Below, piece after piece: positions 11,409-49,622 of a stretch of 64,000 bases of DNA (positions are counted from its first letter, which is position 1; every line of letters starts with the position of its first letter). The DNA is from Escherichia coli (GTDB lineage Bacteria; Pseudomonadota; Gammaproteobacteria; Enterobacterales; Enterobacteriaceae): NCBI RefSeq assembly GCF_044647545.1, contig NZ_CP172818.1; one strand, 5' to 3'. Below the pieces are notes generated by a model that was given only the letters and a program-made list of their open reading frames with translations, was not told the origin of the DNA and ran no database searches. Both the position numbers and the translations under genes were made by a program.

Positions 11409-12197
11409 TTAGCACAGCGTGGCGATAATCACGCTGTCGGCATTAAAGTAGGCCGTGACATTCTGTCCTTGCTGAAGAGAAGTCGCTTCATTTACCGGCA
11501 CTGTGGCGCACAGTGTTTGCCCGTCGGGTAGCGCCATTAATACTTCGCACTGCTCTGCGCCGCGCTCAATATGACTAATAATACCCGGTAATTGGTTGTC
11601 AGCGTTTTGCGCGACCGCCTCGTCCTGAGTAATGCCTACCCACGGCGCTTTTAGCAATATCAACACTTCTTTGCCTTCATCCAGCCCCAGACGTGCGCCG
11701 CTTTGTGCGGTAATTGCGACTTTCAGGCGTGTTTTTCCATCAGCCAGTAAGACATCAACATGCTGTTGAACGTCATCATGATCGCGGGCGGTGATGGTAC
11801 CGAACCACTGGTTACGGGCGCTGGTTTGCAGTGAAAAACGTGAGATCGCGGCCAGCAGGCTGTTCAGCGGCAGGGCGTCATCGTCACTTAACACATCAAA
11901 GGCTTTTTGCTGGATTTGCGCCAGTAAGTCATAGAGCTGAATCAGTCGCTGACCATAGCGGGTCAGTACTGCGCCGCCGCCACCTTTACCGCCTGTTGCG
12001 CGCTCAACCAGAATATGCTCACTTAACTGATTCATCTCGTTAATGGCATCCCAGGCGCTTTTATAGCTGATACCGGCATCTTTCGCTCCCTGGCTAATGG
12101 AACCGGAAAGCGCAATGTGTTTTAGTAGCGAAATGCGGCGCGGGTCGGCGAATAATTTTTGTTGGAGCTTAAGGGTGAGAAGGATTTCGGCCTGCAT
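11409..12197 (-). CDS. modE: molybdate-responsive transcriptional regulator ModE
   Basis: 262-aa ORF with N-terminal HTH and C-terminal tandem Mop (molbindin) domains; position between modF and divergent modABC. Confidence 0.95.
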   Translation of the reverse strand: MQAEILLTLKLQQKLFADPRRISLLKHIALSGSISQGAKDAGISYKSAWDAINEMNQLSEHILVERATGGKGGGGAVLTRYGQRLIQLYDLLAQIQQKAFDVLSDDDALPLNSLLAAISRFSLQTSARNQWFGTITARDHDDVQQHVDVLLADGKTRLKVAITAQSGARLGLDEGKEVLILLKAPWVGITQDEAVAQNADNQLPGIISHIERGAEQCEVLMALPDGQTLCATVPVNEATSLQQGQNVTAYFNADSVIIATLC

Positions 12198-12598: not shown

Positions 12599-12628
12599 CG
12601 TTATATTGACGCCTACATAACGTTACAT
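12599..12628 (+). promoter_or_regulatory. ModE operator at modA promoter
   Basis: cgttatattgacgcctacataacgttacat with CGTTATAT/ATAACG half-sites, ending 14 nt before modA ATG. Confidence 0.7.
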
Positions 12629-12641
12629 TAAGGGGTTACCA

Positions 12642-13415
12642 ATGGCTCGTAAATGGTTGAACTTGTTTACCGGGGCGGCACTCTCTTTCGCTGTTGCTGG
12701 CAATGCACTGGCAGATGAAGGGAAAATCACGGTGTTCGCCGCCGCATCACTGACTAACGCAATGCAGGACATTGCTACGCAGTATAAAAAAGAGAAAGGC
12801 GTGGATGTGGTTTCTTCTTTCGCTTCGTCATCTACTTTGGCCCGTCAGATTGAAGCGGGTGCGCCTGCGGATCTGTTTATTTCTGCCGATCAGAAATGGA
12901 TGGATTATGCGGTTGATAAAAAAGCGATCGATACGGCTTCGCGCCAGACACTGCTCGGCAATAGCCTGGTCGTTGTAGCACCGAAAGCCAGCGAGCAGAA
13001 AGATTTCACCATCGACAGCAAAACTAACTGGACTTCGCTGCTGAATGGCGGTCGCCTCGCGGTTGGCGATCCGGAACATGTCCCTGCTGGCATTTATGCA
13101 AAAGAAGCACTGCAAAAACTGGGCGCATGGGATACGCTCTCCCCGAAACTGGCTCCGGCGGAAGATGTTCGTGGCGCGCTGGCGTTGGTCGAACGCAATG
13201 AAGCGCCGCTGGGTATTGTTTACGGTTCTGACGCAGTTGCCAGCAAAGGGGTAAAAGTGGTTGCCACCTTCCCGGAAGATTCACATAAAAAAGTGGAATA
13301 TCCGGTTGCTGTTGTGGAAGGGCATAATAATGCGACAGTGAAAGCATTTTATGATTATCTGAAGGGGCCGCAGGCTGCGGAAATCTTTAAACGTTACGGA
13401 TTTACAACCAAGTAA
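12642..13415 (+). CDS. modA: molybdate ABC transporter periplasmic binding protein
   Basis: 257-aa ORF with signal peptide (…FAVAGNALA) ; ModE operator upstream; first gene of modABC. Confidence 0.96.
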   Translation: MARKWLNLFTGAALSFAVAGNALADEGKITVFAAASLTNAMQDIATQYKKEKGVDVVSSFASSSTLARQIEAGAPADLFISADQKWMDYAVDKKAIDTASRQTLLGNSLVVVAPKASEQKDFTIDSKTNWTSLLNGGRLAVGDPEHVPAGIYAKEALQKLGAWDTLSPKLAPAEDVRGALALVERNEAPLGIVYGSDAVASKGVKVVATFPEDSHKKVEYPVAVVEGHNNATVKAFYDYLKGPQAAEIFKRYGFTTK

Positions 13416-32972: not shown

Positions 32973-33941
<969 letters not shown>

Positions 33942-34078
33942 TTAACCTGCCAATATTGAGGATACAAACTATTTTCTTCTACCTCTAAAGGACGATGTAC
34001 GCTATGCCTTCCTGATGATGTATATCAAAGTAAAACCGCCATTTTCCCTTATTCTGTAGCGAAATAGCACGATCATGA

Positions 34079-34102
34079 CGCTATATACATGATTACATAG
34101 CG
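34079..34102 (+). promoter_or_regulatory. putative ModE binding site upstream of moa operon
   Basis: CGCTATATA-N6-TACATAGCG dyad resembling the modA operator half-sites, about 175 nt upstream of moaA ATG. Confidence 0.5.
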
Positions 34103-34134
34103 AAAGTGTGGATGGTAAAAATCTCATTTACACG

Positions 34135-34277
34135 CTAGTATCGGCTTAACCACTAAACACTCTAGCCTCTGCACCTGGGTCAACTGATACGGTGCTTTGG
34201 CCGTGACAATGCTCGTAAAGATTGCCACCAGGGCGAAGGAAGAAATGACTTCGCCTCCCGTATCTGGAAAGGTGTAC
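34135..34277 (+). promoter_or_regulatory. moaA leader RNA: molybdenum-cofactor (Moco) riboswitch region
   Basis: Structured leader directly upstream of moaA containing CGCCUCCC and GGAAAGG near the RBS; assigned from knowledge of the E. coli moaA leader; boundaries approximate. Confidence 0.6.
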
Positions 34278-35267
34278 ATGGCTTCACAACTGACTGATGC
34301 ATTTGCGCGTAAGTTTTACTACTTGCGCCTGTCGATTACCGATGTGTGTAACTTTCGTTGCACCTACTGCCTGCCGGATGGCTACAAACCGAGCGGCGTC
34401 ACCAATAAAGGCTTTCTTACCGTCGATGAAATTCGCCGGGTTACGCGCGCCTTCGCCAGTCTTGGCACCGAAAAAGTCCGTCTGACGGGCGGTGAGCCAT
34501 CTTTACGCCGCGACTTTACCGATATCATCGCCGCTGTGCGAGAAAACGACGCTATCCGCCAGATTGCGGTCACCACCAATGGTTACCGTCTGGAACGCGA
34601 TGTGGCGAACTGGCGCGATGCTGGACTTACTGGCATCAACGTCAGCGTTGATAGCCTTGACGCTCGCCAGTTTCATGCCATTACCGGGCAGGATAAATTC
34701 AACCAGGTCATGGCAGGGATCGATGCTGCATTTGAGGCCGGTTTTGAGAAGGTCAAAGTCAATACCGTGCTGATGCGTGATGTTAATCATCATCAGCTCG
34801 ACACCTTTCTGAACTGGATCCAGCATCGCCCTATCCAGCTGCGTTTCATCGAATTGATGGAAACGGGCGAGGGCAGCGAGCTCTTCCGTAAGCATCACAT
34901 CTCTGGTCAGGTTCTGCGGGACGAGCTACTGCGTCGCGGCTGGATCCACCAATTACGTCAACGCAGCGACGGTCCCGCGCAAGTCTTTTGTCATCCGGAT
35001 TACGCCGGAGAGATTGGCCTTATCATGCCGTATGAAAAAGACTTCTGCGCCACTTGCAACCGCCTGCGCGTTTCCTCCATTGGTAAACTCCATCTCTGCC
35101 TGTTTGGTGAAGGCGGCGTTAACCTGCGCGATCTGCTGGAAGACGATACCCAGCAACAGGCGCTGGAAGCGCGTATTTCAGCGGCGCTGCGGGAGAAAAA
35201 ACAGACCCATTTCCTGCATCAAAACAACACCGGTATTACGCAAAACTTATCGTACATTGGTGGCTAA
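34278..35267 (+). CDS. moaA: GTP 3',8-cyclase (radical SAM)
   Basis: Start chosen at [31 protein letters not shown] (radical-SAM cysteines); the upstream in-frame extension is the leader RNA. Confidence 0.95.
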
Positions 35268-35288: not shown

Positions 35289-35801
35289 ATGAGTCAGGTA
35301 AGCACTGAATTTATCCCGACCCGTATTGCTATTCTTACGGTTTCTAATCGTCGCGGTGAAGAAGACGATACCTCCGGTCACTATCTGCGCGACTCGGCGC
35401 AAGAAGCGGGCCATCACGTTGTCGATAAAGCCATTGTGAAAGAAAACCGCTACGCTATTCGCGCTCAGGTATCTGCGTGGATCGCCAGCGACGATGTACA
35501 AGTGGTGTTGATTACGGGTGGTACTGGCCTGACGGAAGGAGATCAGGCTCCCGAAGCGCTGCTGCCGTTGTTCGACCGTGAAGTTGAAGGTTTTGGTGAA
35601 GTGTTCCGGATGTTGTCGTTCGAAGAGATTGGCACTTCCACGTTGCAATCTCGTGCGGTAGCGGGCGTCGCTAACAAAACGCTGATTTTCGCCATGCCGG
35701 GTTCGACCAAAGCGTGCCGTACCGCATGGGAAAATATCATTGCGCCGCAGCTGGATGCCCGTACGCGTCCGTGTAATTTCCATCCACATTTGAAGAAATA
35801 A
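35289..35801 (+). CDS. moaB: MoaB (MogA-like molybdopterin-binding protein)
   Basis: 170-aa ORF with RBS; second gene of moaABCDE. Confidence 0.95.
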
Positions 35802-35803
35802 GT

Positions 35804-36289
35804 ATGTCGCAACTGACCCATATCAACGCCGCTGGCGAAGCGCACATGGTGGATGTCTCCGCCAAAGCGGAAACCGTGCGTGAAGCGCGCGCCGAAGCCT
35901 TTGTCACCATGCGCAGCGAGACGCTGGCGATGATTATTGATGGTCGCCACCACAAAGGCGACGTATTTGCCACTGCGCGTATTGCCGGTATTCAGGCGGC
36001 AAAACGCACCTGGGATCTGATCCCGCTGTGTCACCCGCTGATGCTCAGCAAAGTTGAAGTCAATTTACAGGCTGAGCCGGAGCACAATCGGGTACGTATA
36101 GAAACCTTATGCCGCCTGACCGGGAAAACCGGTGTCGAAATGGAAGCATTAACCGCGGCCTCCGTGGCGGCGCTGACCATTTATGACATGTGCAAAGCGG
36201 TGCAAAAAGATATGGTGATTGGTCCGGTACGTTTGCTGGCAAAGAGCGGCGGCAAATCAGGTGACTTTAAGGTGGAAGCGGATGATTAA
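35804..36289 (+). CDS. moaC: cyclic pyranopterin monophosphate synthase
   Basis: 161-aa ORF, 2 nt after moaB stop. Confidence 0.95.
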
Positions 36290-36527
36290 AGTTCTTTTTT
36301 TCGCCCAGGTGCGCGAGTTGGTGGGAACAGATGCAACCGAAGTAGCTGCGGATTTCCCAACCGTTGAAGCGTTACGCCAACATCTGGCTGCGCAGAGCGA
36401 TCGCTGGGCGCTGGCGCTGGAAGATGGCAAATTGCTGGCTGCTGTCAACCAGACGCTGGTGAGTTTTGACCATCCGCTGACTGACGGCGACGAAGTGGCT
36501 TTCTTCCCGCCGGTAACCGGAGGTTAA
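36282..36527 (+). CDS. moaD: molybdopterin synthase sulfur-carrier subunit
   Basis: Start at [15 protein letters not shown]; 81 aa ending in the GG C-terminus (…PPVTGG); overlaps moaC stop. Confidence 0.93.
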
Positions 36528-36528
36528 G

Positions 36529-36981
36529 ATGGCAGAAACCAAAATTGTTATCGGCCCGCAGCCGTTCAGCGTAGGAGAAGAGTATCCGTGGCTGGCGGAG
36601 CGTGATGAAGACGGTGCGGTAGTCACCTTTACCGGTAAGGTGCGCAACCATAACCTTGGCGACAGCGTCAAAGCATTAACCCTCGAACACTATCCGGGGA
36701 TGACTGAAAAAGCACTGGCAGAAATTGTCGATGAAGCGCGTAACCGCTGGCCGCTGGGGCGCGTCACGGTGATTCACCGCATCGGGGAATTATGGCCGGG
36801 CGATGAAATCGTTTTTGTCGGTGTCACCAGTGCGCATCGCAGCAGTGCGTTTGAAGCCGGGCAGTTTATTATGGATTATCTCAAAACCCGCGCACCGTTC
36901 TGGAAGCGCGAAGCCACGCCGGAAGGCGACCGCTGGGTCGAAGCTCGGGAGAGCGATCAGCAGGCGGCAAAACGCTGGTAG
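36529..36981 (+). CDS. moaE: molybdopterin synthase catalytic subunit
   Basis: 150-aa ORF starting 2 nt after moaD stop. Confidence 0.95.
   Translation: MAETKIVIGPQPFSVGEEYPWLAERDEDGAVVTFTGKVRNHNLGDSVKALTLEHYPGMTEKALAEIVDEARNRWPLGRVTVIHRIGELWPGDEIVFVGVTSAHRSSAFEAGQFIMDYLKTRAPFWKREATPEGDRWVEARESDQQAAKRW

Positions 36982-49475: not shown

Positions 49476-49622
<147 letters not shown>

What the first reader, a model, noticed from the sequence alone, without database searches (positions are those of the whole stretch)
34079..34277. moa operon leader: putative ModE site plus Moco riboswitch region
Upstream of moaA there is a CGCTATATA-N6-TACATAGCG dyad resembling the modA operator, followed by roughly 140 nt of structured leader whose 3' end (CGCCUCCC...GGAAAGG) overlaps the ribosome-binding region. 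This is consistent with molybdate sensing by ModE at the DNA level and molybdenum-cofactor sensing at the RNA level on one operon. The in-frame ATG at 34197 in the ORF track lies inside this leader and is not the moaA start.
Basis: partly seen in the sequence, partly recalled or inferred. Interest (0 to 1): 0.35.

Follow-up and report, generated by a model that had tools for sequence, protein, structure and literature searches.

The report
Known E. coli moaA control region

Summary
The observation and the interpretation both hold, and the feature is already known. The window is E. coli chromosome, 100% identical to many complete genomes. RefSeq already annotates a "molybdenum cofactor riboswitch" at 34146-34290. 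Rfam RF01055 scores 103.4 bits there (gathering score 36, E 1.2e-24).

A covariance model I built from six enteric leaders found 94 full-length relatives across many phyla. In those, 90.6% of cells are paired (66.5% when shuffled) and 32 of 38 pairs show compensatory changes.

The dyad CGCTATATA-N6-TACATAGCG is at 34079-34102. Its only relative in the 64 kb is the modA operator at 12599-12622. It fits 15 of 16 positions of the published ModE consensus. In five other Enterobacteriaceae the half-sites are kept while the spacer varies.

The dyad centre lies about 57 bp upstream of the published S1 start (about 34148), where ModE acts as an activator. A conserved FNR-like box at 34015-34028 serves the distal promoter S2.

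One correction: 34197 is TTG, not ATG. It lies inside helix P2 and is not conserved as a start. moaA starts at ATG 34278.

The E. coli moaA leader is the founding example of this riboswitch class (Regulski 2008; ModE/FNR control from Anderson 2000). Interest is low.

The parts
34015..34028 (.). FNR-like box ATGATgtatATCAA for the distal, anaerobically activated promoter S2
   Evidence: One mismatch to TTGAT-N4-ATCAA. This is not significant on its own (6 such sites in the window against 2.2 expected). It is conserved in all 6 enteric promoters and centred about 40 bp upstream of S2. FNR dependence of S2 comes from the literature.
34050..34055 (+). TATTCT, likely -10 hexamer of promoter S2 (start about 34061)
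   Evidence: S2 lies 87 nt upstream of S1 (Regulski 2008 Fig. 2 legend). The hexamer is conserved as TATTCT/TATCCT in enterics. The assignment is my inference.
34079..34102 (.). ModE-molybdate binding dyad CGCTATATA-N6-TACATAGCG
   Evidence: presence, and rarity in the window. (published consensus). (half-sites conserved and spacer variable in 5 other Enterobacteriaceae). (100% identical over 50 nt in 4918 of 5363 matching E. coli genomes).
34113..34141 (+). Promoter S1: weak -35-like TGGTAA (34113-34118), 17-nt spacer, -10 TAGTAT (34136-34141); start about 34147-34149
   Evidence: The S1 position is derived from the reporter primers and the '131 nt' statement in Regulski 2008. The -10 is conserved as TA(G/A/C)TAT. 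The consensus promoter scan finds nothing here, which fits an activator-dependent promoter. The hexamer assignment is my inference.
34146..34290 (+). Moco riboswitch aptamer (Rfam RF01055), helices P1-P5
   Evidence: 103.4 bits, full-length model match. (RefSeq riboswitch feature at the same coordinates). (41 pairs, 34 canonical). (own model 124.6 bits; covariation).
34197..34199 (+). TTG that opens the mechanical ORF; it lies in the 3' strand of P2 (tetraloop-receptor internal loop) and is not a start codon
34242..34245 (+). GAAA tetraloop capping P4; its receptor is the UCU/UUU internal loop of P2 (34168-34170 with 34196-34198)
   Evidence: Read from the Rfam alignment. The motif is described by Regulski 2008. 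The tertiary contact itself was not tested.
34267..34275 (+). GGAAAGGUG: ribosome-binding site overlapping the 3' strand of P1 (expression platform)
   Evidence: P1 pairs 34157-34162 with 34271-34275. Regulski 2008 gives the same reading.
34278..35267 (+). moaA coding sequence (329 aa), first gene of moaABCDE (moaB 35289-35801, moaC 35804-36289, moaD 36282-36527, moaE 36529-36981)
   Evidence: TIGR02666, 369.7 bits, cut-off 284. (RefSeq annotation).
12599..12622 (.). modA operator CGTTATATTGACGCCTACATAACG, the in-window comparison site for ModE
   Evidence: It lies 20 nt upstream of the modA ATG at 12642.
11409..12197 (-). modE, the molybdate-sensing regulator that reads both dyads
   Evidence: NF007957, 509.8 bits, full length.

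Best explanation
This is the native regulatory region of the E. coli moaABCDE operon, which makes molybdenum cofactor (Moco). It works on two levels.

DNA level. A dimer of molybdate-bound ModE binds the dyad at 34079-34102. The dyad is centred about 57 bp upstream of the proximal sigma-70 promoter S1, which has a poor -35, and ModE activates it. FNR, at a box centred about 40 bp upstream of the distal promoter S2, adds anaerobic activation.

RNA level. The roughly 130-nt leader folds into the five-helix Moco aptamer, with a P4 GAAA tetraloop docking into a P2 receptor. When Moco or a close derivative is plentiful, the aptamer holds helix P1 closed. The 3' strand of P1 (GGUGU, 34271-34275) overlaps the ribosome-binding site just upstream of AUG 34278, so moaA translation is blocked. 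Untranslated RNA is then open to Rho termination. CsrA binding within the aptamer counteracts the repression.

Shown here: identity of the locus, family membership of the RNA, covariation, the match of the dyad to the consensus and its conservation, and the geometry relative to published start sites.

Taken from the literature: ModE and FNR activation, Moco-dependent repression, and the CsrA and Rho effects.

Inferred and never shown directly by anyone: physical binding of Moco to the RNA.
For: Locus: 100% identity to E. coli chromosomes; the stretch is present in 5424 of 5426 genomes.

RNA: RefSeq riboswitch feature at the same coordinates. RF01055 at 103.4 bits against a gathering score of 36. 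My own model, built from 6 enteric leaders, finds one hit in the window (124.6 bits) and 94 full-length relatives in many phyla. Pair counts: 90.6% paired against 66.5% shuffled and at most 45.7% with slid partners; 32 of 38 pairs have compensatory changes; covariation score 0.521 against 0.158.

Dyad: unique in the window apart from the modA operator. It fits 15 of 16 consensus positions. The half-sites are conserved and the spacer is free in five other Enterobacteriaceae.

Proteins: MoaA, ModE and ModA are all confirmed at equivalog level.

Literature: Regulski 2008 used exactly this leader for in-line probing and reporter genetics, and summarises Anderson 2000 on S1/ModE and S2/FNR. CsrA activation is reviewed in PMC7652899. 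Rho-dependent termination is reported in PMC7815308.
Against: Direct binding of Moco to this RNA has never been demonstrated, because the ligand is unstable, so 'riboswitch' rests on genetics and comparative analysis.

I could not read the primary ModE footprinting paper (Anderson 2000 is not held). The statement that ModE contacts exactly this dyad therefore rests on a secondary description ('approximate locations'), the consensus match and the conservation.

The minimum-free-energy fold differs from the consensus fold (-42 against -32.4 kcal/mol) and is not exceptional against shuffles.

Part of the apparent invariance in P4, P5 and P1 in my alignment is imposed by the search pattern I used to collect the loci.
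Confidence: 0.95

Rival explanations
1. The leader is a conserved structured RNA, but Moco is sensed by a protein (CsrA or an unidentified Moco-binding factor) that then binds the RNA, so it is a protein-operated leader rather than a true riboswitch.
For: Direct ligand binding has never been shown. CsrA does bind two sites inside the aptamer.
Against: The same fold, with heavy covariation, occurs in Chloroflexi, Actinomycetota, Bacillota, Desulfobacterota, Spirochaetes and others. That range is far wider than any single known RNA-binding regulator. At about 130 nt, with five helices and a tetraloop-receptor pair, the RNA resembles metabolite aptamers and not protein sites, and no such factor has been found (Regulski 2008). 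CsrA activates rather than mediates the repression.
Confidence: 0.07
2. The open frame upstream of 34278 is translated from TTG 34197, ATG 34209 or ATG 34245, giving an N-terminally extended MoaA, so part of the 'leader' is coding.
For: The frame is open for 90 nt upstream of ATG 34278. ATG 34245 is preceded by AAGGA at a short spacing (read).
Against: TTG 34197 is lost in Enterobacter (a 10-nt indel shifts the frame) and in Pluralibacter (codon CCC). The upstream 'peptide' is conserved only where the RNA helices and junctions are. Moritella has an in-frame stop 42 nt upstream. All these codons lie inside helices P2, P3 or P4. The MoaA family profile aligns from residue 5 of the 329-aa product. 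RefSeq and Regulski 2008 use ATG 34278.
Confidence: 0.02
3. The dyad is a chance AT-rich palindrome or the site of another regulator, not a ModE operator.
For: I could not read the primary footprint data. AT-rich palindromes are common in promoters.
Against: Only two sites in 64 kb fit the pattern, and the other is the modA operator. The dyad fits 15 of 16 positions of the ModE consensus. The half-sites are conserved over a variable spacer in five genera or species. The literature places ModE at this promoter.
Confidence: 0.03

Closest known systems
Moco RNA motif / molybdenum cofactor riboswitch (Rfam RF01055; Regulski et al. 2008, PMC2408646)
   Same: It is the same element. The E. coli moaA leader is the founding experimental example (the '138 moaA' RNA and the lacUV5 reporter fusions). 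The window sequence matches the published primers and all features: P1-P5, the GAAA tetraloop, the P2 receptor, P3 present, and the ribosome-binding site within P1.
   Different: Nothing differs in E. coli. Compared with other enterics (Citrobacter, Enterobacter, Pluralibacter), E. coli and E. albertii lack a small 6-8 bp hairpin between the S1 start and P1, and they have a longer P3.
ModE operator of modABC (in this window at 12599-12622)
   Same: The same dyad architecture, CGyTATAT-spacer-TAyATArCG, read by the same molybdate-bound ModE dimer. modE is encoded 400 bp from the modA operator, in the same window.
   Different: At modA the site overlaps the promoter and transcription start region and ModE represses. 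At moaA it lies upstream of the -35 of S1 (centre about -57) and ModE activates (Anderson 2000, as summarised). The moaA site also lies about +19 to +42 inside the S2 transcript.
Class II FNR-activated promoters
   Same: A TTGAT-N4-ATCAA-type box centred about 40 bp upstream of start site S2, conserved in enterics. FNR dependence of S2 is published.
   Different: The left half-site is degenerate (ATGAT/ATGAC). The match is not statistically distinctive on its own.
CsrA-activated leaders (moaA, ymdA)
   Same: Two GGA motifs lie within the aptamer (34238-34240 in P4 and 34267-34269 at the ribosome-binding site). CsrA is reported to bind two sites in this aptamer and to open the ribosome-binding site.
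   Different: I did not map the sites, because the primary paper (Patterson-Fortin 2013) was not available. Linking the GGA motifs to the published sites is my inference.

Membership tests
Moco RNA motif (RF01055) | Scores above the curated gathering threshold of the family covariance model, full length | tested here: met
   103.4 bits against 36, E 1.2e-24, model positions 1-135 of 135.
Moco RNA motif (RF01055) | Helices P1-P5 around a conserved multistem junction, supported by covariation | tested here: met
   41 pairs, 34 canonical in E. coli. Across 94 relatives, 90.6% of cells are paired and 32 of 38 pairs show compensatory changes, well above both the shuffled and the slid controls. Caveats: the alignment was fitted to the model, and the 3' junction was fixed by the collection pattern.
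Moco RNA motif (RF01055) | GNRA tetraloop on P4 and a receptor in a P2 internal loop | tested here: met
   GAAA at 34242-34245. Non-canonical UCU/UUU internal loop in P2 at 34168-34170 with 34196-34198. The tertiary contact itself cannot be tested here.
Moco RNA motif (RF01055) | Located upstream of Moco biosynthesis, molybdate transport or Moco-enzyme genes | tested here: met
   It lies directly upstream of moaA (TIGR02666, 369.7 bits). 46 of the 121 collected relatives also precede a moaA homologue.
Moco RNA motif (RF01055) | An expression platform coupled to the aptamer (here: ribosome-binding site within the 3' strand of P1) | tested here: met
   GGUGU at 34271-34275 pairs with 34157-34162 and overlaps GGAAAGG, 3-10 nt upstream of the AUG. 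No terminator-like site is found.
Moco RNA motif (RF01055) | Binds Moco and switches structure | not testable with these tools
   Not shown in vitro in the literature either. The evidence is genetic only.
ModE operator | Inverted repeat fitting atCGnTATATA-N6-TATATAnCGat / TATAT-N7-TAYAT | tested here: met
   15 of 16 specified positions. Exact match to TATAT-N7-TAYAT; only 2 sites in 64 kb against 0.1 expected.
ModE operator | Conserved in orthologous promoters as a protein site (half-sites kept, spacer free) | tested here: met
   E. albertii, Citrobacter, two Enterobacter and Pluralibacter score 14-15 of 16, with five different spacers. It is absent upstream of the Vibrio and Aeromonas moaA riboswitches (at most 11 of 16, which is background).
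ModE operator | The cognate regulator ModE is encoded in the genome | tested here: met
   Window 11409-12197 (-): NF007957, 509.8 bits, full length.
ModE operator | Molybdate-dependent ModE binding and a regulatory effect | not testable with these tools
   Reported by Anderson et al. 2000, as summarised in Regulski 2008. The primary paper is not held.
FNR class II site | TTGAT-N4-ATCAA centred near -41.5 of an anaerobically induced promoter | tested here: inconclusive
   One mismatch; centre about -39.5 to -41.5 relative to S2, depending on the exact start; conserved in enterics. The pattern is not rarer than chance in the window (6 against 2.2 expected).

The most novel reading that the evidence does not exclude
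The ModE dyad lies upstream of S1 but also about +19 to +42 inside the transcript that starts at the FNR-dependent promoter S2. Bound ModE-molybdate could therefore activate S1 and, at the same time, act as a roadblock to S2 transcription. The 87-nt 5' extension of S2 transcripts could also alter aptamer folding. In either case the two promoters would not simply add up, and the riboswitch would behave differently on the two mRNAs. I found nothing for or against this in the papers I could read.
Probability: 0.1. Interest if true: 0.3.

Novelty: already known. Interest (0 to 1): 0.05.

Why it matters
The region is a good worked example of layered control on one operon. The metal supply is sensed on DNA by ModE, oxygen is sensed by FNR, and the finished cofactor is sensed on the mRNA by the Moco aptamer, with CsrA and Rho adding to the RNA-level control. 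All of this is published, and the riboswitch is annotated in RefSeq, so the finding adds no new biology. The one open question in the field is whether Moco itself binds the RNA and in what form, and sequence analysis cannot settle that.

Tried and rejected
(1) Thermodynamic folding of 34146-34290 gave z = -1.57, and the minimum-free-energy fold differs from the consensus. I did not use it as evidence for structure.

(2) The consensus promoter/terminator scan of 33880-34300 found nothing. That fits two activator-dependent promoters and a translational, not terminator, platform, but it is uninformative on its own.

(3) I tried to read three primary papers: Anderson 2000 (PMC94831), Studholme & Pau 2003 (by DOI and as PMC317290) and Patterson-Fortin 2013 (PMC3710303). 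None is held. One call failed on a bad search term.

(4) Full-text searches for the exact site sequences and for 'TATAT-N7-TAYAT' found no paper with them. Searches with the term 'ModE' were swamped by the ordinary word 'mode'.

(5) I looked for a ModE-type dyad upstream of moaA-linked riboswitches outside the Enterobacteriaceae. Scores were at background.

(6) I considered upstream translation starts (TTG 34197, ATG 34209, ATG 34245) and rejected them on conservation and structure.

Full report
WHAT IS THERE.
The 521 bases around the finding are 100% identical to many complete E. coli chromosomes and are present in 5424 of 5426 genomes. In RefSeq the stretch lies between yvcK (minus strand) and moaA. 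It already carries a feature 'riboswitch - molybdenum cofactor riboswitch' that maps to window 34146-34290. The genes downstream are moaA (34278-35267), moaB, moaC, moaD and moaE. NCBIfam confirms MoaA (TIGR02666, 369.7 bits). It also identifies ModE (11409-12197, minus strand) and ModA (12642-13415) in the same window.

THE RNA.
A scan of the whole window against Rfam gives RF01055 (Moco RNA motif) at 34146-34290. The score is 103.4 bits against a gathering score of 36, E = 1.2e-24, and the match covers the full model. Mapped onto the sequence, the consensus structure has 41 pairs, 34 of them canonical. The exceptions are where the family expects them:
- the UCU/UUU internal loop of P2 (34168-34170 with 34196-34198), which is the tetraloop receptor;
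- the sheared pairs beneath the GAAA tetraloop of P4 (34242-34245).
The 3' strand of P1 (GGUGU, 34271-34275) overlaps the purine-rich GGAAAGG just upstream of AUG 34278. This is the translational expression platform described by Regulski et al. 2008.

Thermodynamic folding alone does not single the region out (z = -1.57), so I tested covariation independently. One pattern scan of the species-level genome collection, using the conserved 3' junction, returned 120 stretches (121 pattern matches) from many phyla. 46 of the matches are followed by a moaA homologue. A covariance model built from only six enteric leaders plus the E. coli structure found 94 full-length matches in 100 sources, and exactly one in the window (34155-34282, 124.6 bits). 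On that alignment:
- 90.6% of cells are standard pairs, against 66.5% in shuffles and at most 45.7% with slid partners;
- 32 of 38 pairs have compensatory changes;
- the covariation score is 0.521, against 0.158 in shuffles and at most 0.083 with slid partners.
About half of the sequences lack P3, which is the known P3-less subclass. Two caveats apply. The alignment is fitted to the model, and the 3' sides of P4, P5 and P1 were partly fixed by my collection pattern.

THE DNA SITE.
CGCTATATA-N6-TACATAGCG is at 34079-34102, and it is the only inverted repeat in the intergenic region. Allowing three mismatches, the only other site in 64 kb is CGTTATATTGACGCCTACATAACG at 12599-12622. That site is 20 nt upstream of the modA start codon, so it is the modA operator. 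TATAT-N7-TAYAT hits the same two sites only. The dyad fits 15 of 16 specified positions of the published E. coli ModE consensus atCGnTATATA-N6-TATATAnCGat.

In E. albertii, Citrobacter, two Enterobacter and Pluralibacter the half-sites are kept (14-15 of 16), while the six spacer bases differ in each. This is the signature of a site read by a dimeric protein. Upstream of the Vibrio, Aeromonas, Moritella and more distant moaA riboswitches no such dyad is found (at most 11 of 16, which is background). In this sample, therefore, the pairing of a ModE site with the riboswitch is an enterobacterial arrangement. Within E. coli, the 50 nt around the dyad are 100% identical in 4918 of 5363 matching genomes.

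GEOMETRY.
The reporter primers and the '131 nt' statement in Regulski 2008 place start site S1 at 34147-34149 and S2 87 nt upstream, at about 34061. Several positions follow from that:
- The dyad centre (34090.5) is about 57 bp upstream of S1.
- The S1 -10 is TAGTAT (34136-34141). The hexamer 17 bp upstream of it is a poor TGGTAA, which fits an activator-dependent promoter. The consensus scan finds no promoter here.
- A conserved box ATGATgtatATCAA (34015-34028) is centred about 40 bp upstream of S2, the class II FNR position. By itself it is not rarer than chance, but it is conserved in all six enteric promoters.
The hexamer assignments are my inference. The roles of ModE (activator of S1) and FNR (activator of S2) come from Anderson et al. 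2000 as summarised by Regulski et al. 2008 and by PMC10845959.

THE START CODON.
In-frame ATGs lie at 34209 and 34245. All three are inside helices P2, P3 and P4 respectively. A 10-nt indel in P3 shifts the frame in Enterobacter, and the codon is CCC in Pluralibacter. The upstream 'peptide' is conserved only where the RNA is, and Moritella has an in-frame stop 42 nt upstream. The MoaA family profile aligns from residue 5 of the protein that starts at 34278.

MECHANISM.
Molybdate-ModE and FNR decide whether the operon is transcribed. The aptamer in the leader closes P1 over the ribosome-binding site when Moco is abundant and so blocks moaA translation. CsrA binds two sites in the aptamer and opens the ribosome-binding site. 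Rho terminates in the leader or early ORF. Direct Moco binding has never been shown, because the ligand is unstable. That remains the only real gap, and it is not one that sequence analysis can close.

VERDICT.
The feature is already known in full: the E. coli moaA leader is the founding example of its riboswitch class. Interest is 0.05.

Noticed in passing
window 49544-49586 (-): Rfam hit to ES036 (CssrF) sRNA at 43.3 bits, just above the gathering score of 37.6. It lies in the rhlE-ybiA intergenic region, where RefSeq annotates nothing.
   Followed up: partly
L042 about 1700-1730, L121 and L044 just upstream of their model matches, L077 (aligned between window 34153 and 34154): Citrobacter, both Enterobacter and Pluralibacter carry an 18-24 nt insertion between the S1 start region and P1. 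In each species it forms a different 6-8 bp hairpin (-4.9 to -8.7 kcal/mol; z -2.5 to -4.7). E. coli and E. albertii lack it. It may be an extra 5' stem of the leader, with an unknown role.
   Followed up: partly
window 12599-12622 and 11409-12197 (-): The real modA operator and the modE gene lie in the same 64-kb window, about 21.5 kb from the moaA dyad. This gave an internal positive control for the ModE motif.
   Followed up: yes
alignment A2 (94 Moco RNAs from L002-L121): About half of the collected relatives lack helix P3 (45-50 gaps in its columns), which is the known P3-less subclass proposed to sense the tungsten cofactor. Several MAGs (Syntrophomonas UBA4922, Actinomycetota STD1_74 and Zod_Metabat.502) carry three or four copies on different contigs, and L074 has two copies about 200 nt apart.
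   Followed up: no
window 34236-34247: AAGGA followed 4 nt later by an in-frame ATG (34245) inside P4. The ATG is conserved in enterics, Aeromonas and Moritella, which is most simply explained by RNA constraints. It looks like a ribosome-binding site and start codon, but it is buried in the helix.
   Followed up: partly
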